DNA of 32,509 nt from a virus. Every line of letters begins with the position of its first letter. The first letter of the stretch is position 1. The stretch is taken from the IMG/VR virus record IMGVR_UViG_3300045988_111917; one strand, written 5' to 3'. The notes under the pieces were generated by a model that ran no database searches, was not told where the DNA came from, and was given only the letters and a program-made list of their open reading frames with translations. This document shows positions 22,083 to 31,301 of the stretch, in pieces. A program made the position numbers and the translations under genes.

Positions 22083-23531
22083 ATGCTGGTGAAGAATCCA
22101 AATTGGAGGGCGAACGTCCGTCCCACATCCGACGTGGCAATCATGGCCGCGGAATACGTGAACTGGGGTCGCGGAAACGCAATCCTCCCGTTCCAAGTCG
22201 AATTTCTCAACAACGCCTTCCAACGCAAGAAGGACGGCACTTGGAAATACAAGCGTGTCGCATTGAACATGCCGCGTCAGAACGGCAAGACCAAAATCCT
22301 CACCGCCCCAATACTCTTCTATCTGTTCGTGCTCGGACTGAACGTGCTCGTCACCGCGCATGAGCAGATTGCGGCCAACAAAATCATGGAGGATTTGAAA
22401 GACGCCATCGATTCGAATCCCGAACTGAAAGCCGAAGTCACGCATTTCAGTACCACCATGGGACGCGAGCGCCTACAGTTGAAGAACGGCGCGTTCGTCC
22501 GGTTCCGCTCCCGCAAGAGCGCTTCCGCAGGCATGGGCGGCACGTTCGATTTGGTTATCTTCGACGAGGCACAGGAACTCCGCTCCGAATACGAGGCGAT
22601 GATTACCAAGACGTTGAAGACGCGTCGCATGGCGATGATAATCTACACCGGCACGCCGTTCCTCCCCTCGTCCATCGGCGACACGTTCAACGTGTTCCTT
22701 GACAACGCCGAAAACGACGACATGGCGTATGCGGTGCGCTACGGCGTCGATGACGAGACGGCGGACATCGAGGATGAGCAGTTGTGGGCGCTCACCAACC
22801 CGCTCTATCCGGATGTGATTCCACGTGAAGCGTTCCTCACCGACGTGGCGATAGCCAAACAGGGCGGCGCGGACGGCCTCATCGACTTCCGTATCCAAGA
22901 CTTAGGCCTGTGGTGGGCGGACAGTATTCCTCCGGCAATCCCGATGGACTTGTGGGACAGCGCATACTCCGACCTCCAACATGACCGCGACACGCTCGTC
23001 TACGCGCTCACCTTCGACCCGACAACCAGCACCCTCGCCCTGTCCGTGGCTGCCAACACCGAAGAGGTCACGGTCGGCTCGCAGCATTACGACAAGTGGG
23101 CGTACATCATCGGCGAAATCGTGGACGAACGCCCCACCACCGAATCATGGCAGTGGGTGGTTGACGAGCTGAAGACGCGTCCACGCAAGACCACGCTCAT
23201 CTTGGACGCTGGCGGATTGAACAATCCGATAAGGGACATGCTTCCGCGTGGGTTGAACGTCATCCAATTGACCGGTACCGAGTTCCTCGCCTCGCAGCAG
23301 GGATTCCTCGACCTGCTGAACGAGGGACGGTTCAAACATACAAACAACCCGCAGCTGACCGCCGAAGTGCAGAACGCGCAGAAGCTCAAATCCGGTTCGG
23401 ATGACCAGTGGAAGTTCGCGCCGATACGCAAGACCGAAACCACGGCCGGTTTGAAGGGCGTCAGCATCGCCGCATGGTATCGCGGCGTTAACCGTCCGAA
23501 GGAACGCAAGGTCAGGGAGGTGATTGCCTGA
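22083..23531 (+). CDS. terL: Terminase large subunit
   Basis: Walker A MPRQNGKT, Walker B FDLVIFDEAQE, coupling motif YTGTP, and a C-terminal nuclease-size domain. 482 aa. Confidence 0.9.
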   Translation: MLVKNPNWRANVRPTSDVAIMAAEYVNWGRGNAILPFQVEFLNNAFQRKKDGTWKYKRVALNMPRQNGKTKILTAPILFYLFVLGLNVLVTAHEQIAANKIMEDLKDAIDSNPELKAEVTHFSTTMGRERLQLKNGAFVRFRSRKSASAGMGGTFDLVIFDEAQELRSEYEAMITKTLKTRRMAMIIYTGTPFLPSSIGDTFNVFLDNAENDDMAYAVRYGVDDETADIEDEQLWALTNPLYPDVIPREAFLTDVAIAKQGGADGLIDFRIQDLGLWWADSIPPAIPMDLWDSAYSDLQHDRDTLVYALTFDPTTSTLALSVAANTEEVTVGSQHYDKWAYIIGEIVDERPTTESWQWVVDELKTRPRKTTLILDAGGLNNPIRDMLPRGLNVIQLTGTEFLASQQGFLDLLNEGRFKHTNNPQLTAEVQNAQKLKSGSDDQWKFAPIRKTETTAGLKGVSIAAWYRGVNRPKERKVREVIA

Positions 23532-23815
23532 TGGGCAAGGATACGGGACTCTACCATCGGAATCGCGCCATCCTCCGCGAACGCACCAAACGGACTGGAG
23601 CGCCCTGCTATTATTGCGGCGCACCTTTCTACTGGGGCCGTAACACAGCGCATCCGTTGGCGTTCACCGCAGACCATGTGATACCGCGTGCCGCTGGTGG
23701 AAGCGACAGGATGGACAATCTCGTTCCGGCGCACATGCAATGCAATCGCGCCAAGTCTGACCATATAGCAAGTCCGGCGACACGCCGAACGCGAACTGCG
23801 ACGAGAAGGTGGTAG
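23531..23815 (+). CDS. HNH endonuclease (packaging-associated)
   Basis: CYYCG ... DHVIPRAAGGSDRMDNLVPAHMQCNRAKSD. The ATG overlaps the TerL stop. Confidence 0.9.
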   Translation: MGKDTGLYHRNRAILRERTKRTGAPCYYCGAPFYWGRNTAHPLAFTADHVIPRAAGGSDRMDNLVPAHMQCNRAKSDHIASPATRRTRTATRRW

Positions 23816-23915: not shown

Positions 23916-24149
23916 TAGAGATGGTCGGCAGACGATTAGAGCAGCTTCGTCCACCATGCCAAGACCGACCGTCTCCCCAAAAATGTACTGACTTGAACCG
24001 CCCCAGCACAGTCGTTAAACAATGCAGGGCATACCCACTGGCGACGGTGGGGTCGAGGCGCACACAGCCGGAAACAATCGTGGTAGAGGCCGAGTCGGGG
24101 CCGCAATGCAGAAGGCCGACACCATCCACCTCAACCACGAAAGGCAGTC

Positions 24150-25193
24150 ATGTCCCTAGCGACAATCGAACTGAAGCCGGGCTTCGTTGACCGCAAGCTG
24201 ATTTCCAACCAGCCCGCGGCCGGAGCCATCGCAAGGATTTCCAACAGCACTCCAATCGACCTCATCGGCACGCAGATGCAGACCATCGACTTCTCCGGCG
24301 AAATGGGCATCTTCGGCGAAGGCGCCACCGGCGAAACCGACGCCGAAAAGAAGAAGAAGTCAAATGACGCCACCAACGGTGTCGTGACCATCAACCCAAT
24401 CACCTTCTATATCAGCTACCGTTTCCCGAAGAAGTTCCTTCAGCTGTTCGGCGTTGACGGCGCCTACAATCCGACCGACGCCACCTTCCGCGCCGGTTCG
24501 CCGCAGACCATGCTTCAGAGCATCCTCGCGCAGCCATATCAGGCCGGAATCCTCGACCAGTACCGCACGTATGTGAACCGTGCAATCAGCCGCGCACTCG
24601 ACTTCGCCCCCATCTTCGGCGTCAACCCGGCCACCAAGGCCGCGTCCACCGTCGCACGCACCAACGGATACGTGCTCGATCAGGCCGGAGACATCGACTA
24701 CACTCCGGGCACCGGAGCGGAAGCCGCCACCGCGTTCAAGCAGGCCGTGCGACAGGTCGCCGCACAGGGCGACGCGTCCGCGCAGGGCGTCACCACCTCC
24801 GCATACCTGGCTGCAATCGGCGATGGCCTCACCACCATCGGCACGCCGACCCAGTATGCCGCCGACGTTCCGCTCATCGGCAACATGGTCAACCTCGGCG
24901 GCGTCACCCTCGCAGCCTCCAACACCGTGTCCGACACCGCGGCGGCCACCGGCTCCGGCCAGCTGGGCGAGAAGGTGCTCGATGCGGTCATCGGCGACTT
25001 CGCCAACCGTTTCGTCTGGGGCGCCATCCCGCTGTCCGGCATCGAAGTGTTCGACTCCGGCAACCCGGACAATTCCACAGAAGGCGACTTGGGCGCAGTC
25101 AACAAGGTGATGCTCCGCACCGAAGTCGCAATCGGCTGGGGCTTCATCGGCGGGACCAGCAAGTTCTACGCCATCACCCACGCCACCGCGTGA
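24150..25193 (+). CDS. Major capsid protein (HK97 fold, no delta domain)
   Basis: 347 aa. Overall Phage_capsid-like pattern with C-terminal NKVMLRTEVAIGWGFIGG. Ala/Gly/Thr-rich and evidently highly expressed. Confidence 0.85.
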   Translation: MSLATIELKPGFVDRKLISNQPAAGAIARISNSTPIDLIGTQMQTIDFSGEMGIFGEGATGETDAEKKKKSNDATNGVVTINPITFYISYRFPKKFLQLFGVDGAYNPTDATFRAGSPQTMLQSILAQPYQAGILDQYRTYVNRAISRALDFAPIFGVNPATKAASTVARTNGYVLDQAGDIDYTPGTGAEAATAFKQAVRQVAAQGDASAQGVTTSAYLAAIGDGLTTIGTPTQYAADVPLIGNMVNLGGVTLAASNTVSDTAAATGSGQLGEKVLDAVIGDFANRFVWGAIPLSGIEVFDSGNPDNSTEGDLGAVNKVMLRTEVAIGWGFIGGTSKFYAITHATA

Positions 25194-25231: not shown

Positions 25232-25266
25232 CCACTGATTGAACGCTAACAACGAAAGGAATTGAG

Positions 25267-25863
25267 ATGGGCGCAAAGCAGTCTTCCGCAAACGTGACAT
25301 TCTCGAAGCCGGGTACTAGTGCCAACAAGTCCGGCTATATTTGGGTCGCCCCACTGGGCACCGCAATCCCCACCGACGCCACCTCCGAACTGGACGCGGC
25401 GTTCGTCGGCCTTGGCTATCTGTCCGAAGACGGTCTGACCGAACCGGCATCCCTCTCCGCGGGTGACGATATTGTGGCCGCCGGTGGCGATACGGTCGCA
25501 CAGGCTGACCCGACGTTCTCCAAGACGTGGACGGGTACTTGCATCGAAGCCCTGAACGAAGACCTGCTTAAGGTCGCATACGGCTCCGCCAACGTGACGG
25601 TCGAACAGGCATCCTCGTCAAAGGATGGCTCTATCACCGTCAAGGAACAGGCCAGCGAACTGGAGCATCACGTCATCGTCATCGACGAAATGTTGAAGGG
25701 CGGACGCAGGCGCCGTAACGTGATGGCGGACGCCACCTTCCTCATCACCGGCGACATCAGCCACGTGCATACGGCTCTCGTGAACTTCGAGTTCACCATC
25801 AACGCCTATCCGACCGCCACCGCTCCGGCTCAGACCCAGTACATCACCATCCCAAAAGCGTAA
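25267..25863 (+). CDS. Major tail (tail tube) protein
   Basis: 198 aa. YIWVAPLGTAIPTDA...GLGYLSEDGLT is typical of siphovirus tube proteins. Follows the capsid gene and precedes the chaperones. Confidence 0.85.
   Translation: MGAKQSSANVTFSKPGTSANKSGYIWVAPLGTAIPTDATSELDAAFVGLGYLSEDGLTEPASLSAGDDIVAAGGDTVAQADPTFSKTWTGTCIEALNEDLLKVAYGSANVTVEQASSSKDGSITVKEQASELEHHVIVIDEMLKGGRRRRNVMADATFLITGDISHVHTALVNFEFTINAYPTATAPAQTQYITIPKA
25851..25857 (+). promoter_or_regulatory. Candidate -1 programmed frameshift heptamer C CCA AAA at the end of the tail-tube gene
   Basis: X XXY YYZ in the correct phase, 4 nt before TAA. The -1 frame is open for 116 codons beyond it. Confidence 0.6.
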
Positions 25864-26207
25864 GCTCTCCAAATCCGACGCTGACAGTCACCGTATCCGA
25901 TGGTACGGTGGCTGAAGATGGTGCGATGTGGGTGGTCGGCGACTGGGGGCAAGCCTCGCCATGGTCACGCGATACCGGCGTGAAGATGGTCAAGGGCGAG
26001 AATGATGTCTATACTGGCGAACTTTCCCTTCCGAAGGGTACCAAGTTCGACATCAAGATCCTGAAGTCCACGGTCTCCACGACGAGCGGCGGCGATAATA
26101 CTTGGTCCGCGGTCGGGTATGCCAGCACTCTGAACACGTCCACTTCACATGGCTTTGGAGAGTTTACCGACAATCTGATTCCAAACGGCAACTTCGACGA
26201 AGGATAG
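25857..26207 (+). CDS. -1 frame C-terminal extension of the tail-tube protein: linker plus CBM20/25-like beta-sandwich
   Basis: SVSSPNPTLTVTVSDGTVAEDGAMWVVGDWGQASPW...VKMVKGENDVYTGELSLPKGTKFDIKILKS. In-frame starts (GTG 25908, ATG 25926) lack an SD and would truncate the first strand. Confidence 0.55.
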   Translation, partial: SVSSPNPTLTVTVSDGTVAEDGAMWVVGDWGQASPWSRDTGVKMVKGENDVYTGELSLPKGTKFDIKILKSTVSTTSGGDNTWSAVGYASTLNTSTSHGFGEFTDNLIPNGNFDEG

Positions 26208-26600
26208 GTGAAATGGACGCCGGCCGAAGCGATTAGAGAAGTTAGTAGTTCACAAAGTGGCAAAAATGTATTATCGCTCGGAGGTAATTCAGACATTACA
26301 TCATGTTCTTCTGATGTATTCACCATTCCACCGGGCCAGACATTGCGGTTCAGCGGGTATCTGCTTACTCATCATCCGCCTGTTAAGGGTGTTGTCGAGA
26401 TGAAGATTGTCACCCCTCAACAGCAAACACTGTTTGAGTTTAGCGTTAACGCTGGAGGTGACAGCACTTACCATCAGTTCAGTAAGACATTCAAGAGCAT
26501 GGATGTGCCAATTGACTGCCGGATTGTGTTGTCGAATGCTACCGTTGGTAAATGGTACGAACATGCGCTCTTCGATTCACTCTCGCTTGTCAGCCCGTAA
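26208..26600 (+). CDS. CBM_4_9 / galactose-binding-like jelly-roll module, same frame as 25857..26207, separated from it only by TAG
   Basis: VKWTPAEA...GKNVLSLGG...FTIPPGQTLRFSGYLLT...CRIVLSNATVGKWYEHALFDSLSLV. The opening NGNFDEG strand lies upstream of the TAG. GC is about 43 percent. Confidence 0.5.
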   Translation: MKWTPAEAIREVSSSQSGKNVLSLGGNSDITSCSSDVFTIPPGQTLRFSGYLLTHHPPVKGVVEMKIVTPQQQTLFEFSVNAGGDSTYHQFSKTFKSMDVPIDCRIVLSNATVGKWYEHALFDSLSLVSP

Positions 26601-26617
26601 TGTGATGACAGGGCACA

Positions 26618-26668
26618 CACCCCACGCCAAGACATAGTTATGCCCTTGGCGTGGGGTATCCTTATATA
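26618..26668 (+). terminator. Terminator-like hairpin closing the capsid/tail-tube unit
   Basis: ACCCCACGCCAAG (26618-26630) / CTTGGCGTGGGGT (26644-26656): 13-bp stem, 13-nt loop, then ATCCTTATATA. Confidence 0.55.
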
Positions 26669-26691
26669 GAAAGACAACGAAAGGAAATCCA

Positions 26692-26976
26692 ATGGCAAAA
26701 CGCAAGCCCACCATCACCGCAGAAGACTTCAACGACAATTGGGGCGACGCCTACGCGAAACTCCTCCGCAACCGAAAATTCCAACAGGCCATCCACTCCG
26801 AAAAAGTCGAAGACGGCGTGGAAACCATCTGGCTCGTAGACAAGCTCATGCGCGGCGTGCTGAAGGAAAACAAGTACGAAGCGGTTATGAACGCATTCGA
26901 CGATGACGTGCTCGACGCATGGGAATACCTCTCGGGAAAATTGCCAGCGCTTTTGGATTCACAGTCGAAAGACTGA
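26692..26976 (+). CDS. Tail assembly chaperone (gpG-like)
   Basis: 94 aa, immediately upstream of the TMP. Contains the slippery site near its 3' end. Confidence 0.8.
   Translation: MAKRKPTITAEDFNDNWGDAYAKLLRNRKFQQAIHSEKVEDGVETIWLVDKLMRGVLKENKYEAVMNAFDDDVLDAWEYLSGKLPALLDSQSKD
26934..26940 (+). promoter_or_regulatory. -1 programmed frameshift heptamer G GGA AAA (chaperone G/GT)
   Basis: Correct phase (TCG GGA AAA TTG). The -1 frame is open through to TAG 27279-27281, abutting the TMP start. Confidence 0.8.
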
Positions 26977-27281
26977 CCTACGCGATAAACCCCGACCAGT
27001 GGGACAGCCAAATCTTGGCCGATTTCGCAAGCCAATACGGCAGTCCCAAAAACTACACCATCATAGAGAGAGCCAAGCTCATAGGCACGTTCGGAGCGAC
27101 GGCACGACTCTTGGATATCATTCAACAGTCAACGCTCGCCCCCTACTCCGGCAAGGGCAGGAAACCGAAAAGCGTGTTGCCGGAAAACCGGAAGAACACC
27201 AAAACGGAGGATTATGAACTAGATTCGATGAACACCGAAGACATCAACAAGGCGTTGGGTCTTCACCGAAAGGAATGGTAG
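26940..27281 (+). CDS. Tail assembly chaperone, frameshifted extension (gpGT-like fusion 26692..26940 + 26940..27281)
   Basis: The -1 frame reads IASAFGFTVERLTYAINPDQW.... This is the conserved G/GT arrangement of long-tailed phages. Confidence 0.8.
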   Translation: MASAFGFTVERLTYAINPDQWDSQILADFASQYGSPKNYTIIERAKLIGTFGATARLLDIIQQSTLAPYSGKGRKPKSVLPENRKNTKTEDYELDSMNTEDINKALGLHRKEW

Positions 27282-30200
27282 ATGGCAAAGGGCAGCATCG
27301 CGACCGCATGGATACAAGTACTTCCATCGTTGGAAGGCTTGCATTCCGCACTTGTCAAAGCAAGCAAGGGCGCGGTGCTCACCCCCGCCATCAAACCCAA
27401 ACTGGCATCCGGCACAAGCCGACTCTTCGCATCGAACGGCTTGGGCATGTCCAAACTGTTTTCTGGCTCGTTCAATAAGAGCCTCAACCTGCAAGGCGGC
27501 GTGAAAAACGCGCTCAACAGCGTGTTCGCATCCTTTAGTTCCAGTGGATGGCGTTCCGCCAACGCTTTCGGCAAAGGCTTCGCGAACCTCGACCTCAACA
27601 AGTATCTGAATGCAGCAGCCGCCATCGCCGCTGTGGCATCGGTCGGCAAGGCCGTCAAAAACGTCACGTCCGACATCATCGAAATGGGCAACCAGTGGGG
27701 TCGGACCACCGCCATGCTGAAGAACGCGGTAGGCACCACCGGAGACTACACGGGCTCGCTCGAAATGTCGCTGAAATATGCGAACGAGGTCGGCGTCACC
27801 ACTGACGATTTCATCCAGTCGGCGGCACGTCTTCGCACGCTCGCGCCGGAAGTCGTGACCAATTACGGTGACGCGGCGAAATTCACCAAACTGCTCGACA
27901 TGAACATGGTCAGCACCGGCGCGTCCACGCAGGAAGCGTCCAGTGCCATGCGGCAGATTACCCAAGCATTGGGCAAGGGCATCGTCAACGGCGATGAGCT
28001 GAATTCCATCATGGAGAACTCGCCGCAAATCGCACGAATGCTCGCCAAGCATCTCAACGCTTCCGTAGGCGACCTGAAACAGTTGGGCAAGGAAGGCTCC
28101 ATCAGCGGCCAAGCCCTCTACGATACGGTGCTTGAAAACGCCGACGCCATCGAAAAGCAGTTCCACGCCATGCCCGTCACGGCAGACCGCGCATGGAACA
28201 GCATCAAGAACACGGTCGGCGCAAGGTCGGCGGAAGCCACAACCGCATTATCCACTAACCTTGGTAAAGCGTTGACCGCCATCTCCAATTCGGGCATGAC
28301 GGACACGTTCGGCGAAATGCTCGCAGGATTCGTGCCATTGTCGAACGCGGCCGCTAAGTTGGCGACGACGTTCGTCAACCAGATTGCGCCAGCCGTCAAC
28401 AATGCGTTCAACGTGCAGCGGGTCGAACAGTTCCTCGCCCCATTGACGAATCTCATCAGCCTGAACTCGCAGAACGTCAACCTGCTATCCTCCTTGGCCG
28501 ATATGCTGAACACGGTGGGCGTCATCGGCGCCACCGCGTTCTCCCTCATGGTCGCCACGAACGACCGGTTCGCATCCCGTATCCCGTTCATCGGCCGCGC
28601 GCTGGTCGGCGTGAAGAACACGCTCGTCGGGCTTGGTTCCAGATTCACTGACGTGTTCGGAGCGGCGGTGTCCGCATCGTCAGCAGTCATCGACAAGCTC
28701 GCGTCCATGGCTGACGCGATGGCGAAAACGCTGTCAGAATCAACGAAAGCGCAGAACGCGCTCGGCAAGTTCAATGTCGCGTTCGAAGACTTGGGGACGT
28801 ACGCGTTCAGCTTCGGTGAGAAAGGCGCTGAAGGCTTCGAACTCATCCAGCAGGCCGCGACCAACCTGCGCAATGGTGTGGGACAGGCGTCCGAGAATGT
28901 GAAGCTGCTCCAAACCGGTTTGAACGCGATGGGAGCCGATGCGGAAGCGCTTCCCGAAGCGTTCCTCAAAGCGTTCGAAACCCTCAACACCGAAGTGGAT
29001 GCCGCCGCGCGGAAGAAGGCCCCATCCCTCATCCAAGCGTTCCATGACATTCGCGCCGCCGCCGACACCATCGTAGTGGATTCCGGCATCTACCGTTCAT
29101 TGGACACGGCCGGACAGAGCGCGGACATCTACCGTGACAAGCTCGTGCAGGTCGGACGCGAGTTCAAAGACCTCACCGGCCTGAACATTCCAGACATGTT
29201 CCTCCCATTGGTCGGCTCCGCCGTGTCCGCGTCCGACAGCATCATGCAGACGTTCGGCAACCTGAAGGCCGGATTGTCCAACTATGCCGCGAACACGGCG
29301 CAGCAGTGGGCGCCGGTCAAGGAGATTCTCGCCGAAGCATTCTCAAACGCCGCAGCATCCGTCAAAACGAAGATGGAGGCCATGTGTGCCGCCGTCGAAT
29401 CCGGCGCACTCTCCATGGTCGAGAACGTGAAGGGCTGGGCGTCCGAGTTCAAGACGGCGTTCGACGAAATGCTGGACACGAGCGGCATCAGCGACACCAT
29501 GTCAAAGCTCGGGACTGCGGTAGGCAATGGGCTTTCCACTGTCAAGGGCGCGCTCAAGTCGTTTGGCTCCGAAGCGGCGTCCACGTTGTCTGAGCCGTTC
29601 GACGGTCTTGCTGAAAAGATTTTCGGCTCGTTCAAAGGGCGGAATCCGTTCGCGCCGTTGACGTCCGCAGCTAAGACTGTGAGCGCCGGACTCTCGGCCA
29701 CGGTCGGCGGCGCCGTGTCGCGTCTTGCCGGACGGTTCAGCCCGTTGGCGTCCGCCGGAAAGGCAGCCTTCGCCACCATCGGCTCCGCCGCGTTGAAGGT
29801 GTCTTCCGGCGCGTTGAAGGGATTCGGCGCGGCCGTGAATGGAGTCGGCGCGGCAATCGGCAAGATTGGCGGCATCGCATCCCAGTTGGGCGTGACCGGC
29901 GCATTGTTCGCCGGCCTGACCACCGGATTCCAGACACTGTTCAAACTCGACCCGTCCCAGATGGTCGGCAAGTTCGACGAATGGCAGAAAAGCCTCGACA
30001 ACACGCTTACCGGCATCCAGACGAAACTGCCCGCCATGGCGAACGCGTTCGCTGCCGCCCTACCGCAGATGGAGGCGAGCGTCACCGCCGCACTGCCGGG
30101 CATCGCCAACGCGCTCATGAGCGTCGGACAGACGCTCGCACCCGCGTTGATGACGATACTGCCGCAAATCACCCAAGCGTTCTCCGACGTGTTCGCCCAG

Positions 30201-31301
30201 CTGCCCGGCTTCATCGCCACCTACGGCCAGCCGATGCTGGAAGCGTTCGGCAGCCTGTTCGCCACACTCGCCGGACAGATCCCGTCGCTTATGACCTCGC
30301 TTGGTCAGGCGTTGATTACCGGCGTTCAGGTCGCGTTCAGCGCCATAAGCGACAATAGCGGGGCCATCGCCGGATTCATCAGCGGATTCGGCGCGTCCTT
30401 GGCTTCCGGCATTCAGACGTTGGGCGCCACCGTTGTGGCCGCGCTCCCGTCCATCGGACAGAGCATCGCCACCGCGCTGCCGACGCTGATTCCGACGTTG
30501 ACGTCCGCCATCACAAGCGTGATAACCTCGTTGGCTGCAGCATTGCCGGGCATTGCCGTCGCCATCATCAACCAGCTGCCGGCAATCATCGGTGGTTTGG
30601 CTACCGGCATCGTCAACGGTCTGCCGACACTGATTAGCGCTTTTATCAGCGTTGCGACCAGCATTGCAGCGAACTTTCCAAGCATTTTCATGGCCGTTGC
30701 GCTCGCTGTCCCTGCGATTATCGGGGACATCGCCCGACCTTTCGCCGGATTGGGTGGTCGTATTCTCGGCTACATCAGGAGCATTCCGGGCAAAATCATG
30801 GGCGTGTTCGCCGGTGCCGGGTCGTGGCTGGTCGATTCCGGCGCCGCGTTGATGAACGGTTTCAAGCAGGGTATCGTCAACGCGGTCGAAAGCGTGAAGA
30901 GCGCGGTGAAGGGTGCGTTGCAGAAGGTTCGAGACTTCTTCCCGTTCTCTCCCGCTAAGGTCGGCCCGTTCTCCGGTTCAGGCTACACGTCCGTGTCGGG
31001 CGAGCATCTTATGCGCGACTTCGGCAAGGCCATCGGCGCCCAAGGCGCGTTCGTACGCGGTCAGGTCGATGGCGTGCTCGGCTCCTTGGATTTCGACCAG
31101 ATTGACGCGACAAATCTGGGCATGGTGTCGGCGCCACGGCTTAAAGACTATACTGGAATGGTGTCGGCTGGCGACCAGCGGTATGCTGGCGGCGTCCACA
31201 TCGACAATGTGGTTGCAAGCCCGTTGAGTGACGTGGAACTCGTGGCCCGCCGATTCGGATACGCTTTGAACAATGAGATGATTGGAAGTGTCAGACCTTG
31301 A
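27282..31301 (+). CDS. Tape measure protein
   Basis: 1339 aa, Ala/Gly/Ser-rich helical protein with a hydrophobic C-terminal third. Lies directly after the chaperones. Confidence 0.95.
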   Translation: MAKGSIATAWIQVLPSLEGLHSALVKASKGAVLTPAIKPKLASGTSRLFASNGLGMSKLFSGSFNKSLNLQGGVKNALNSVFASFSSSGWRSANAFGKGFANLDLNKYLNAAAAIAAVASVGKAVKNVTSDIIEMGNQWGRTTAMLKNAVGTTGDYTGSLEMSLKYANEVGVTTDDFIQSAARLRTLAPEVVTNYGDAAKFTKLLDMNMVSTGASTQEASSAMRQITQALGKGIVNGDELNSIMENSPQIARMLAKHLNASVGDLKQLGKEGSISGQALYDTVLENADAIEKQFHAMPVTADRAWNSIKNTVGARSAEATTALSTNLGKALTAISNSGMTDTFGEMLAGFVPLSNAAAKLATTFVNQIAPAVNNAFNVQRVEQFLAPLTNLISLNSQNVNLLSSLADMLNTVGVIGATAFSLMVATNDRFASRIPFIGRALVGVKNTLVGLGSRFTDVFGAAVSASSAVIDKLASMADAMAKTLSESTKAQNALGKFNVAFEDLGTYAFSFGEKGAEGFELIQQAATNLRNGVGQASENVKLLQTGLNAMGADAEALPEAFLKAFETLNTEVDAAARKKAPSLIQAFHDIRAAADTIVVDSGIYRSLDTAGQSADIYRDKLVQVGREFKDLTGLNIPDMFLPLVGSAVSASDSIMQTFGNLKAGLSNYAANTAQQWAPVKEILAEAFSNAAASVKTKMEAMCAAVESGALSMVENVKGWASEFKTAFDEMLDTSGISDTMSKLGTAVGNGLSTVKGALKSFGSEAASTLSEPFDGLAEKIFGSFKGRNPFAPLTSAAKTVSAGLSATVGGAVSRLAGRFSPLASAGKAAFATIGSAALKVSSGALKGFGAAVNGVGAAIGKIGGIASQLGVTGALFAGLTTGFQTLFKLDPSQMVGKFDEWQKSLDNTLTGIQTKLPAMANAFAAALPQMEASVTAALPGIANALMSVGQTLAPALMTILPQITQAFSDVFAQLPGFIATYGQPMLEAFGSLFATLAGQIPSLMTSLGQALITGVQVAFSAISDNSGAIAGFISGFGASLASGIQTLGATVVAALPSIGQSIATALPTLIPTLTSAITSVITSLAAALPGIAVAIINQLPAIIGGLATGIVNGLPTLISAFISVATSIAANFPSIFMAVALAVPAIIGDIARPFAGLGGRILGYIRSIPGKIMGVFAGAGSWLVDSGAALMNGFKQGIVNAVESVKSAVKGALQKVRDFFPFSPAKVGPFSGSGYTSVSGEHLMRDFGKAIGAQGAFVRGQVDGVLGSLDFDQIDATNLGMVSAPRLKDYTGMVSAGDQRYAGGVHIDNVVASPLSDVELVARRFGYALNNEMIGSVRP

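What the first reader, a model, noticed from the sequence alone, without database searches (positions are those of the whole stretch)
25851..26207. Tail-tube protein probably extended by a -1 programmed frameshift into a CBM20-like module
The tail-tube ORF ends ...ATC CCA AAA GCG TAA. Its last codons contain C CCA AAA (25851-25857), a canonical X XXY YYZ slippery heptamer in the correct phase, 4 nt before the stop.

The -1 frame is open from there for 116 codons. It reads PK-SVSSPNPTLTVTVSDGTVAEDGAMWVVGDWGQASPWSRDTGVKMVKGENDVYTGELSLPKGTKFDIKILKS.... That is a short linker followed by a beta-sandwich whose VVGDWG..W...M.....Y.G.L.LP.GT.F..K pattern resembles starch/glycan-binding CBM20/25-type modules.

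The only in-frame starts (GTG 25908, ATG 25926) have no SD and would delete the first strand (TLTVTVSDG). The same genome uses the sister heptamer G GGA AAA at 26934 for its chaperone frameshift. A 7-bp hairpin (CACCGTA/TACGGTG, 25888-25909) lies downstream, but 31 nt away, further than classic stimulators.

Ig-like domains appended to phage tail or capsid proteins by -1 frameshifting are established (Fraser et al. 2006). A CBM-type module followed by a second recoding event is not something I recognise as described.
Basis: partly seen in the sequence, partly recalled or inferred. Interest (0 to 1): 0.7.

Follow-up and report, generated by a model that had tools for sequence, protein, structure and literature searches.

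The report
Frameshifted sugar-binding extension of phage tail tube
A gut Bifidobacterium phage very probably uses a -1 ribosomal slip at the end of its tail-tube gene to put carbohydrate-binding modules on some tube subunits, a known phage trick with a new cargo, and in this genome a point mutation has cut off the second module.

Summary
The tail-tube gene (25267-25863) ends ATC CCA AAA GCG TAA. C CCA AAA (25851-25857) is in phase, and the -1 frame is open to TAG 26205-26207.

The -1 frameshift reading is well supported by comparison, though not by experiment:
- The heptamer is kept in about 70 of 72 related phage loci.
- The 68 nt between the heptamer and the first possible start codon evolve as -1-frame coding sequence (pN/pS 0.47, third-position periodicity, no stops).
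- That stretch encodes the first strand of a CBM20-like domain (Pfam hit at threshold; Foldseek top hits are all CBM20).

In the window, one CAG>TAG change truncates it, leaving module 2 as an orphan in-frame ORF (26208-26600).

About half of the related genomes carry independent nonsense or frameshift lesions in this extension. Their capsid, tube and chaperone genes are never broken, so the decoration is dispensable and often lost.

Carbohydrate-binding tail-tube extensions made by programmed frameshifting are already established (lactococcal 936 MTP-TpeX, SPP1 gp17.1*). This is a new member of a known kind.

The parts
25267..25863 (+). Major tail (tube) protein gene, 198 codons, 0 frame
   Evidence: Pfam PF25681 Phage_TTP_17 E 1e-9; PHROG 117 major tail protein E 2e-35. 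It has a strong SD (ACGAAAGGAA, -9.8 kcal/mol).
25851..25857 (+). Slippery heptamer C CCA AAA, the proposed -1 frameshift site
   Evidence: In phase. Kept in about 70 of 72 related loci, although codon 195 varies I/L/V and always ends in C. It uses the minor codons CCA (20% of Pro) and AAA (32% of Lys).
25861..25863 (+). 0-frame stop TAA of the tube gene, one codon after the heptamer
   Evidence: It is TAA or TAG in relatives.
25858..25925 (+). Linker and first beta-strand of the extension. It is coding in the -1 frame and has no start codon upstream in that frame.
   Evidence: pN/pS 0.47 (bootstrap CI 0.25-0.75), against 1.96 and 1.00 in the other frames. Third positions vary in 20 of 21 columns against 22 of 41 (Fisher p 0.001). 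Stops occur in 0 of 44 sequences in this frame and in 44 and 43 of 44 in the others. The AF2 strand is residues 10-16, TLTVTVS.
25878..26165 (+). CBM20-like beta-sandwich (module 1 of the extension)
   Evidence: Pfam CBM_20 at the gathering threshold, and in 24 of 44 homologues. Foldseek PDB top hits are 1b90, 2z0b, 1cqy and CGTase domain E. BLASTP gives 2e-9 to a genuine tandem CBM20 fragment, P0160.
25885..25914 (+). 13-bp RNA hairpin, 27 nt downstream of the heptamer
   Evidence: The 58-nt segment has an MFE of -23.6 kcal/mol and a z-score of -3.6. 86.5% of pair cells are kept in 44 relatives, with compensatory changes at 4 pairs. A hairpin is predicted at the same place in 9 of 10 diverse relatives. 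Its role is unknown.
26172..26204 (+). First 11 residues (NLIPNGNFDEG) of module 2, still attached to the CBM20 part
   Evidence: These residues are part of the confidently modelled jelly roll in the intact relative P0025. They are invariant or near-invariant in the alignments.
26205..26207 (+). Premature TAG: a nonsense mutation of a Gln codon (CAG in close relatives)
   Evidence: The closest relative, L076/P0001, has CAG. The GenBank relatives BP742P1, BA720P3 and BP677P3 have sense codons there. The TAG allele is also present in an ENA human-gut contig that is identical to the window over the 3.1 kb compared. The window has no suppressor tRNA.
26208..26600 (+). Orphaned remainder of module 2 (CenC/CBM4/16/22-like jelly roll). 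It is in the same frame as the extension and has low GC (0.47).
   Evidence: It is continuous with module 1 in relatives. The AF2 model of P0025 has pLDDT 80-95 over this module. Foldseek hits are CBM16 2zey, the porphyran CBM 8xmz and CBM4-2, and CenC-like modules of phage tail fibres in BFVD.
26619..26657 (+). Strong stem-loop after the end of the extension and before the chaperone gene
   Evidence: The 83-nt segment has an MFE of -28.7 kcal/mol and a z-score of -3.9. No terminator-like site lies between the tube gene and the extension.
26692..27281 (+). Tail assembly chaperone G (26692-26976) and its -1 frame T part (to 27281), with G GGA AAA at 26934-26940
   Evidence: The position before the tape-measure gene (27282-31301, PF20155 in the relative) matches the conserved G/GT arrangement. 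This serves as an internal example of an XXA AAA -1 site in the same genome.

Best explanation
While decoding the last codons of the tail-tube gene, a minority of ribosomes slip back one base on C CCA AAA (25851-57). The tRNA-Pro re-pairs CCA to CCC and the tRNA-Lys re-pairs AAA to AAA. These ribosomes miss the TAA at 25861 and continue in the -1 frame.

The product is the tube protein (residues 1-197) fused through a short Ser/Pro linker to a CBM20-like carbohydrate-binding sandwich. In intact relatives a second, CenC-like jelly-roll carbohydrate-binding module follows, giving about 444 aa in total.

The long form co-assembles with the 198-aa form. A few subunits per tail therefore display glycan-binding modules on the outside of the tube. 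These modules probably aid reversible adhesion to host-surface or environmental glycans.

In this window a CAG>TAG mutation at 26205 ends the long form after the CBM20 module, at about 313 aa. The rest of module 2 (26208-26600) is an orphan.

Shown: the sequence anatomy, the conservation, the coding constraint and the folds. Inferred: the slip itself, its efficiency, incorporation into virions, and the ligand.
For: 1. The heptamer is in phase. It is retained in about 70 of 72 relatives while neighbouring codons and the stop codon vary. Only 21% of degenerate third positions in the tube gene are invariant, yet all three heptamer wobble bases are. Non-preferred codons are used.
2. No ATG, GTG or TTG exists in the -1 frame between 25719 and 25908. 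Even so, 25858-25925 shows -1-frame coding constraint (pN/pS 0.47, CI 0.25-0.75; periodicity p 0.001; no stops). This is similar to the CBM20 core (0.38).
3. The Pfam CBM_20 match starts at extension residue 12, and the AF2 first strand is residues 10-16. Both lie upstream of Met26.
4. The internal Met is Leu or Ile in some homologues (P0085, L021).
5. The same heptamer precedes a different cargo, a Big_2 Ig-like domain, in relatives L043, L052 and L061. This fits module shuffling at a fixed recoding junction.
6. The same genome uses G GGA AAA for the chaperone shift. These are the only two XXA AAA in-phase heptamers in six structural genes.
7. No terminator-like site lies between the tube gene and the extension, and a strong hairpin follows the extension.
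8. There is experimental precedent for frameshifted tail-tube decorations (PMC4759559, PMC6669499, PMC5009743).
Against: - There is no experimental evidence for the long product.
- No stimulatory structure lies at the canonical 5-9 nt. The conserved hairpin starts 27 nt downstream, and RNAalifold does not recover it as a consensus.
- No natural in-frame tube-extension fusion was found among 363 homologues or 66 cluster representatives.
- ATG 25926 is conserved in about 95% of relatives and has moderate anti-SD complementarity. Some independent initiation therefore cannot be excluded.
- The heptamer is also kept in relatives whose extension has decayed. Part of its conservation may thus reflect recent common descent.
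- Loci with indels in the linker were left out of the alignment used for the pN/pS calculation.
Confidence: 0.78

Rival explanations
1. The modules are a separate gene. Translation starts at ATG 25926 (as gene callers and the GenBank annotators assume) or at GTG 25908. The product is a free carbohydrate-binding protein that is not joined to the tube protein.
For: - GenBank and metagenome gene calls start at this Met.
- The ATG is conserved in about 95% of relatives.
- Anti-SD complementarity upstream is -7.5 kcal/mol, close to the capsid gene's -7.9.
- No in-frame fusion was found anywhere.
Against: - The 68 nt upstream of the ATG are under -1-frame coding constraint and encode the first CBM20 strand.
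- The Met is Leu or Ile in some intact or near-intact homologues.
- The SD-like bases sit too close to or too far from the ATG, and GTG 25908 has none.
- The tube, chaperone and tape-measure genes all carry an ACGAAAGGAA-type SD, which is absent here.
- A free CBM with no anchor has no evident role in a structural gene block.
Confidence: 0.1
2. In this genome the region is simply a decaying pseudogene. The extension is no longer made or no longer matters, and the heptamer is a leftover.
For: - The window carries a premature TAG.
- About half of relatives have nonsense or frameshift lesions, or deletions, in the extension.
- The heptamer persists in clearly decayed relatives.
Against: - The CBM20 part and the linker are intact in the window.
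- 21 of about 31 broken alleles carry a single lesion.
- Intact alleles show purifying selection (pN/pS 0.38-0.62).
- More than 300 intact homologues exist.
- Truncation after module 1 still leaves a complete CBM20 fusion.
Confidence: 0.07
3. TAG 26205 is decoded rather than terminating, either by readthrough or by a TAG>Gln reassignment. The window would then still make the full two-module extension, a second recoding event.
For: - TAG replaces a Gln codon, the direction seen in TAG-recoded gut phages.
- The downstream module is intact and in frame.
- L017 has TAG at the same codon.
Against: - The window has no suppressor tRNA.
- In relatives TAG and TGA also replace Trp, Tyr and other codons, and they occur together with frameshifts. 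The pattern is ordinary nonsense mutation by transitions.
- TAG is used as a normal stop for tube genes in relatives.
Confidence: 0.03
4. The frame change occurs at the RNA level. Transcriptional slippage on the A run gives mRNAs with one A fewer, rather than a ribosomal slip.
For: - The site contains a run of A.
- Some relatives have expanded it to 6-7 A (L043, L056, L057, L060, L065).
Against: - Four A residues are far below the run length known to support efficient RNA polymerase slippage (my knowledge of the field; see PMC5009743).
- The full X XXY YYZ pattern is what is conserved, including the C of the preceding codon, not only the A run.
Confidence: 0.02

Closest known systems
Lactococcal 936-group phages: MTP-TpeX tail protein extension (Murphy et al. 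2016, PMC4759559; Hayes et al. 2019, PMC6669499)
   Same: - An ORF directly downstream of the major tail protein gene, without a start of its own, is fused to the tube protein by programmed frameshifting.
- The cargo is a carbohydrate-binding module displayed along the tail.
- It is present in only some members of the phage group.
- Fusion, tail location and host-cell binding were all shown experimentally there.
   Different: - There the shift is +1 at a 'shifty stop' CCC.UAG. Here it is a -1 X XXY YYZ heptamer.
- There the cargo is BppA-like and follows an Ig-like adhesin domain. Here it is a CBM20-like plus CenC-like tandem placed directly after the tube domain.
- The host phylum differs (Actinomycetota rather than Bacillota).
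- Nothing has been tested experimentally here.
Bacillus phage SPP1 gp17.1* and Listeria phage (A118, A500, PSA) long tail proteins
   Same: Two forms of the tube protein come from one gene by recoding near its 3' end. The long form carries a decoration domain that faces outward (as summarised in PMC6669499 and PMC5009743).
   Different: Those shifts are +1, and the cargo is an FN3/Ig-like domain, not a CBM20 or CenC module.
Ig-like domains added to phage structural proteins by -1 frameshifting (Fraser et al. 2006; T3 capsid, Lactobacillus phage A2; reviewed in PMC5009743)
   Same: A -1 shift adds an accessory beta-sandwich to a structural protein. The cargo is mobile and lands in or out of frame by chance. 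Relatives L043, L052 and L061 carry a Big_2 Ig-like domain behind the same heptamer.
   Different: The window's cargo matches CBM20, not an Ig-like family. The named examples in the review concern capsid proteins.
Lambda-type G/GT tail chaperone frameshift
   Same: A canonical -1 heptamer of XXA AAA type with low presumed efficiency. It is present in the same genome at 26934-40.
   Different: G/GT products are assembly chaperones that are absent from virions. Here the product is presumed to be a structural subunit.
CBM20 starch-binding domains of amylases, CGTases and glucoamylases
   Same: The fold and sequence motifs match (VVGD..G.W, W/Y-TG.L.LP.GT.F.YK). Pfam hits at threshold, Foldseek gives E 3e-4 to 1e-3, and BLASTP gives 2e-9 to the actinobacterial CBM20 fragment P0160.
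   Different: The module is attached to a virion protein, not an enzyme. It is a very divergent member, with no PDB hit by sequence. The ligand is unknown.

Membership tests
Canonical -1 programmed ribosomal frameshift site | X XXY YYZ heptamer in the 0-frame phase, within the overlap with an open -1 frame | tested here: met
   C CCA AAA at 25851-57. The -1 frame is open from 25719 to 26204.
Canonical -1 programmed ribosomal frameshift site | Heptamer conserved among relatives beyond what the encoded amino acids require | tested here: met
   About 70 of 72 loci keep it. Codon 195 is I, L or V but always ends in C. CCA and AAA are minor codons. Only 21% of degenerate third positions are invariant in the tube gene. 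Caveat: the relatives are close (tube protein at least 85% identical).
Canonical -1 programmed ribosomal frameshift site | Downstream -1 frame is coding from the shift site onward, with no start of its own | tested here: met
   pN/pS 0.47 (CI 0.25-0.75), periodicity p 0.001, and no start codon between 25719 and 25908.
Canonical -1 programmed ribosomal frameshift site | Stimulatory hairpin or pseudoknot 5-9 nt downstream, or an upstream SD-like element | tested here: not met
   The only stable, conserved hairpin starts 27 nt downstream. There is no SD-like element upstream and no Rfam match. Many phage shift sites lack a stimulator, so this lowers the expected efficiency, not the claim itself.
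Canonical -1 programmed ribosomal frameshift site | Trans-frame protein actually produced | not testable with these tools
   This needs proteomics, a western blot or a reporter assay.
Phage tail tube protein (Pfam Phage_TTP_17 / PHROG 117) | Profile match above threshold, and a position between the capsid gene and the chaperone and tape-measure genes | tested here: met
   PF25681 scores 38.8 bits against a cut-off of 27. phrog_117 gives E 2e-35. The gene order is shown.
CBM20 (starch-binding domain) | Sequence match at Pfam's gathering score | tested here: met
   23.4 bits against a cut-off of 23.3, so marginal. 24 of 44 homologues hit at E<0.01, with a best E of 1.5e-5.
CBM20 (starch-binding domain) | Seven- to eight-stranded beta-sandwich fold superposable on solved CBM20s | tested here: met
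   The AF2 model has pLDDT 62 and seven strands. Foldseek's best PDB hits are all CBM20, with TM about 0.56. Model confidence is only moderate.
CBM20 (starch-binding domain) | Binding-site 1 aromatic and Lys residues (Trp after 'LG.', Lys in 'YKY', second Trp) | tested here: inconclusive
   W38, K69 and W85 align with these positions by eye in the P0160 alignment, and W38 and W85 are (near-)invariant. The mapping to site residues rests on my recollection of CGTase and glucoamylase numbering. It is not a structural test.
CBM20 (starch-binding domain) | Binds starch or alpha-glucan | not testable with these tools
   This needs a binding assay.
CenC-like / CBM4_9-CBM16-CBM22 jelly-roll modules (module 2) | Jelly-roll fold matching solved members | tested here: met
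   Tested on the intact relative P0025. pLDDT is 80-95, and Foldseek gives TMt 0.70-0.73 to CBM16 (2zey, 2zew) and 0.72 to 8xmz. BFVD gives CenC-like modules. Pfam CBM_4_9 hits only 1 of 44 members, at 1e-3.
CenC-like / CBM4_9-CBM16-CBM22 jelly-roll modules (module 2) | Complete module present in one reading frame in this window | tested here: not met
   TAG 26205 separates its first 11 residues from the rest.
Frameshift-made tail-tube decoration of the MTP-TpeX / gp17.1* type | +1 shift at a CCC-stop 'shifty stop' | tested here: not met
   The site here is a -1 heptamer, and the stop is preceded by GCG. It works like these systems but is not a homologue of them.
Frameshift-made tail-tube decoration of the MTP-TpeX / gp17.1* type | Long form incorporated into the tail beside the short form | not testable with these tools
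   This needs immuno-EM or mass spectrometry.

The most novel reading that the evidence does not exclude
These phages infect Bifidobacterium adolescentis and B. pseudocatenulatum, which are starch-degrading gut bacteria (my knowledge). They may use the frameshifted CBM20 'starch-binding' module, plus a swappable second glycan-binding module, to tether virions to dietary resistant-starch granules or alpha-glucan where their hosts feed. This would be a dietary-fibre counterpart of phage adherence to mucus.

On this reading, the repeated independent knock-outs of the extension, and especially of module 2 at the module junction, reflect fluctuating selection on this stickiness in different guts or diets.
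Probability: 0.12. Interest if true: 0.7.

Novelty: new member of a known kind. Interest (0 to 1): 0.4.

Why it matters
It corrects the annotation of a whole group of human-gut Bifidobacterium phages. All the genes concerned are labelled 'hypothetical' in GenBank, and the extension is called as a separate gene from an internal Met.

It adds a CBM20-type and a CenC-type module to the list of cargoes displayed on tail tubes by recoding. It also gives a concrete, testable hypothesis for how these phages find their hosts, whether by binding host-surface glycans or dietary glycans.

The population pattern is a clean natural example of a dispensable virion decoration under weak or fluctuating selection. 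About half of natural genomes carry independent, mostly single, inactivating lesions confined to the extension. The pattern also warns that such ORFs will often look broken in metagenomes.

Cultured relatives exist (BA720P3, BP742P1, BP677P-series), so all of this can be tested directly.

Tried and rejected
- **In-frame fusions.** I looked for tube-extension fusions that would act as a 'Rosetta stone'. None appeared among the 120 best of 363 homologues or among 66 cluster representatives of a full HMM search.
- **PDB by sequence.** Neither the single sequence nor the profile gave a hit. Only the fold comparison worked.
- **Rfam.** The scan of 25600-26800 found nothing.
- **RNAalifold.** It did not recover the hairpin as a consensus. 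Per-sequence folds and pair counts did recover it.
- **Stimulator at canonical spacing.** A structure starting 6 nt after the heptamer appears in the 103-nt fold, but it is not significant (z-score -1.0). Its 3' partner is not conserved by eye. Rejected.
- **TAG>Gln recoding.** Rejected. There is no suppressor tRNA, and stops in relatives also replace Trp, Tyr and other codons.
- **Sequencing error as the cause of the broken extensions.** Rejected. The capsid (67/67), tube (69/70) and chaperone (71/71) genes in the same contigs are intact, and the window's allele recurs in an ENA assembly.
- **GTDB species-representative genomes.** The scan found no relative of the tube protein. I found no prophage copy and obtained no host assignment from genomes.
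- **Literature.** Searches for CBM20 on phage tails and for Bifidobacterium phage frameshifts found nothing specific.
Full report
**What is in the sequence**

The window looks like the complete genome of a siphovirus of about 32.5 kb from a human gut metagenome. It is identical over the 3.1 kb compared to an ENA contig of 32,513 bp from run ERR321605. Its nearest named relatives are Bifidobacterium phages BP742P1, BA720P3/BA746P1 and the BP677P series, which infect B. pseudocatenulatum and B. adolescentis. Identity over this region is 79-83%.

The local gene order is terminase, HNH, capsid (24150-25193), tail tube (25267-25863), the region in question, chaperone G/GT (26692-27281) and tape measure (27282-31301).

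The tube ORF ends ATC CCA AAA GCG TAA. CCCAAAA occupies 25851-25857 in the X XXY YYZ phase. The -1 frame is open from 25719 to TAG 26205-07 and contains no ATG, GTG or TTG before 25908.

**Is the extension really CBM20-like?**

Yes, within the limits of computation.
- The 118-residue -1 product hits Pfam CBM_20 just at the gathering score (23.4 against 23.3 bits, E 5e-5). The match runs from residue 12.
- 24 of 44 homologues hit the same family.
- An AlphaFold2 model (pLDDT 62) is a seven-stranded sandwich. Its best PDB matches by Foldseek are all CBM20 starch-binding domains: B. cereus beta-amylase, human GDE5 and CGTase domain E, with TM about 0.56.
- A full-library HMM search pulled out a genuine tandem CBM20 fragment, P0160. 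It aligns to the window at BLASTP E 2e-9 with the typical motifs.
- Sequence-only searches of the PDB found nothing.

In every intact relative the -1 frame runs on for about 235-257 codons and encodes a second module. That module is a beta jelly roll. The AF2 model of relative P0025 has pLDDT 80-95 over it. It matches CBM16, CBM4, CBM22, CBM61 and a porphyran-binding CBM in the PDB, and CenC-like modules of phage tail fibres in BFVD.

The window's ORF 26208-26600 is the remainder of this module and lies in the same frame. It is separated from the CBM20 part only by TAG 26205-07. The closest relative (92% identical protein; Logan contig L076) has CAG there, so the TAG is a single C>T nonsense change. 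It cuts module 2 after its first 11 residues (NLIPNGNFDEG).

The window has no tRNA gene. The TAG allele is also present in the ENA assembly that matches the window.

**Evidence for the -1 frameshift**

1. *Heptamer conservation.* In 72 related IMG/VR loci plus the GenBank and Logan relatives, about 70 of the 72 loci where the tube gene's 3' end could be read keep C CCA AAA in phase, one codon before the stop. This holds although the preceding codon is ATC, CTC or GTC (always ending in C), the following codon varies (GCG, GCC, GAG, CCG, CAG, TCG, GTG) and the stop is TAA or TAG. CCA and AAA are the minor codons for Pro (20%) and Lys (32%). Only 21% of degenerate third positions in the tube gene are invariant across 61 distinct sequences.

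2. *Rarity of such motifs.* Across 2542 codons of six structural genes there are only four in-phase X XXY YYZ motifs. The two of XXA AAA type are this one and the chaperone G GGA AAA.

3. *Coding constraint in the linker.* The 68 nt between the heptamer and the first ATG behave as -1-frame coding sequence.
   - pN/pS is 0.47 (bootstrap 95% CI 0.25-0.75), against 1.96 and 1.00 in the other two frames.
   - Third positions vary in 20 of 21 columns, against 22 of 41 for first and second positions (Fisher p 0.001).
   - No stop occurs in 44 distinct sequences, whereas the other frames have stops in 44 and 43 of 44.
   - Among intact alleles the linker's pN/pS (0.44) is like that of the CBM20 core (0.38). 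The tube gene is at 0.18 and module 2 at 0.62.

4. *Domain boundary.* This stretch encodes the first beta-strand of the CBM20 fold (TLTVTVS), according to both the Pfam alignment and the AF2 model. Because no start codon precedes it in frame, only ribosomes coming from the tube frame can translate it.

5. *The internal Met is not universal.* It is Leu in P0085 and Ile in L021.

6. *A different cargo at the same junction.* Three relatives carry a Big_2 Ig-like domain behind the same heptamer. Pfam gives E 9e-7 on a hand-stitched translation. This fits cargo shuffling at a fixed recoding junction.

**Weak points**

- There is no stimulatory structure at the usual 5-9 nt. A 13-pair hairpin (25885-25914; z-score -3.6) begins 27 nt downstream. 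It is kept in most relatives, with compensatory changes at four pairs, and is predicted at the same place in 9 of 10 diverse relatives. I cannot assign it a role. It may stabilise the tube mRNA or mask internal initiation. It may also partly follow from the repeated Thr-Val codons.
- ATG 25926 has moderate anti-SD complementarity (-7.5 kcal/mol, with poor spacing). The tube, chaperone and tape-measure genes show -9.8 to -11.3 with a shared ACGAAAGGAA motif. Some independent initiation therefore cannot be excluded.
- No in-frame fusion exists in the databases searched.
- The alignment used for the pN/pS calculation left out loci with indels in the linker.

**Population pattern**

The extension is recurrently broken in nature. 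Among roughly 57 CBM20-type relatives, about 27 are intact and about 30 carry nonsense or frameshift lesions. Of the broken ones, 21 have exactly one lesion.

The same codons are hit on different module-2 backgrounds:

| Codon | Change | Loci |
|---|---|---|
| W122 | TAG | L008, L015, L032, L035 |
| Q119 | TAG | window, L017 |
| W27 | TAG | L028, L038, L054 |
| W32 | TGA or TAG | L009, L038, L074 |

Indels often sit in A runs. In the same contigs the capsid gene is intact in 67 of 67, the tube gene in 69 of 70 and chaperone G in 71 of 71. Sequencing error is therefore not the cause.

One clade retains only a deleted remnant. One locus (L071) has lost the heptamer as well as part of module 2. 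Four loci have expanded the A run to seven.

A few relatives have their lesion in the linker itself (L024, L028, L031, L047, L051). However, the lesion density there is similar to that of the rest of the extension, so it does not favour a separate gene.

The decoration is evidently dispensable and frequently lost, while intact copies remain under purifying selection.

**Mechanism proposed**

A small fraction of ribosomes slip -1 on C CCA AAA. They make a tube-linker-CBM20(-CenC-like) protein of about 313 aa in this window and about 444 aa in intact relatives. This long form co-assembles with the 198-aa form and displays glycan-binding modules along the tail.

The slip, its efficiency, incorporation into virions and the ligand are all inferences.

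**Comparison with known systems**

The closest known systems are these:
- Lactococcal 936 MTP-TpeX. This is a +1 shift at CCC.UAG with a BppA-like CBM. The fusion, its location on the tail and host binding were shown experimentally (PMC4759559, PMC6669499).
- SPP1 gp17.1* and the Listeria phage tail proteins, which use +1 shifts.
- The -1 Ig-like additions reviewed by Atkins et al. (PMC5009743).

The present case works like these but differs in three ways. The shift is -1. The cargo is a CBM20 plus CenC-like tandem placed directly after the tube domain. The host phylum is different.

I found no paper describing a CBM20 on a phage tail or this frameshift in Bifidobacterium phages. That is absence from one library, not proof of absence.

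**Verdict**

It is a new member of a known kind, of moderate interest. The truncating TAG and the recurrent natural knock-outs are the most informative additions.

Noticed in passing
L004-L075 (IMG/VR relatives), region homologous to window 25851-26600: About half of related genomes carry independent nonsense or frameshift lesions confined to the tube extension. Most carry a single lesion, and the same Trp and Gln codons are hit repeatedly (W27, W32, Q119, W122). The capsid, tube and chaperone genes in the same contigs are never broken.
   Followed up: partly
L043, L052, L061 downstream of the tube gene: The same C CCA AAA heptamer is followed by a Big_2 Ig-like domain instead of CBM20 (Pfam E 9e-7 on a stitched translation). 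The domain is frame-broken in all three loci. L043 and L061 also carry a further long ORF inserted before the chaperone gene.
   Followed up: partly
L056, L057, L060, L065 (and L043) at the tube gene 3' end: The A run of the heptamer is expanded to CCCAAAAAAA (tube protein ends IPKKA), or to six A in L043. This occurs mostly in genomes whose extension is decayed. The longer run would be far more slippery for both ribosome and polymerase.
   Followed up: no
L025, L039, L056-L058, L062, L064, L065: This clade has a short remnant with a large internal deletion of CBM20 and no module 2. The remnant still stays open in the -1 frame for about 50-85 codons, ending GSFG* in most loci. It is unclear whether it is a decaying pseudogene or a short acidic tail that is still made.
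   Followed up: no
window 26619-26657: A strong 13-pair stem-loop (z-score -3.9) lies between the end of the extension and the chaperone gene. It has no U tract. It is possibly an mRNA-stabilising or attenuating element that sets the tube-to-chaperone expression ratio.
   Followed up: partly
window 25885-25914: This hairpin, conserved and with compensatory changes, begins 27 nt (about one ribosome footprint) after the slip site. That is too far for a classic stimulator, and its function is unexplained.
   Followed up: partly
window 26172-26600 and homologous parts of L001-L076: Module 2 has much lower GC (0.47-0.51) than the tube gene (0.59-0.62) in nearly all relatives. It also comes in many divergent variants. 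This suggests a mobile, exchangeable cassette.
   Followed up: no
window 25250-25266, 26675-26691, 27265-27281 (and 24133-24149): The tube, chaperone and tape-measure genes share an almost identical ribosome-binding context, (A)CGAAAGGAA. The capsid gene has CGAAAGG.
   Followed up: no
whole window versus GTDB genomes: No relative of the tube protein was found in 185,579 species-representative bacterial genomes. Yet hundreds of near-complete 27-34 kb contigs exist in gut metagenomes. I therefore found no prophage copy in the representative genomes.
   Followed up: no
window 23531-23815: A small HNH endonuclease gene abuts the large terminase gene (PF01844 in relative L076). This is the usual arrangement of HNH-assisted cos packaging.
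   Followed up: no
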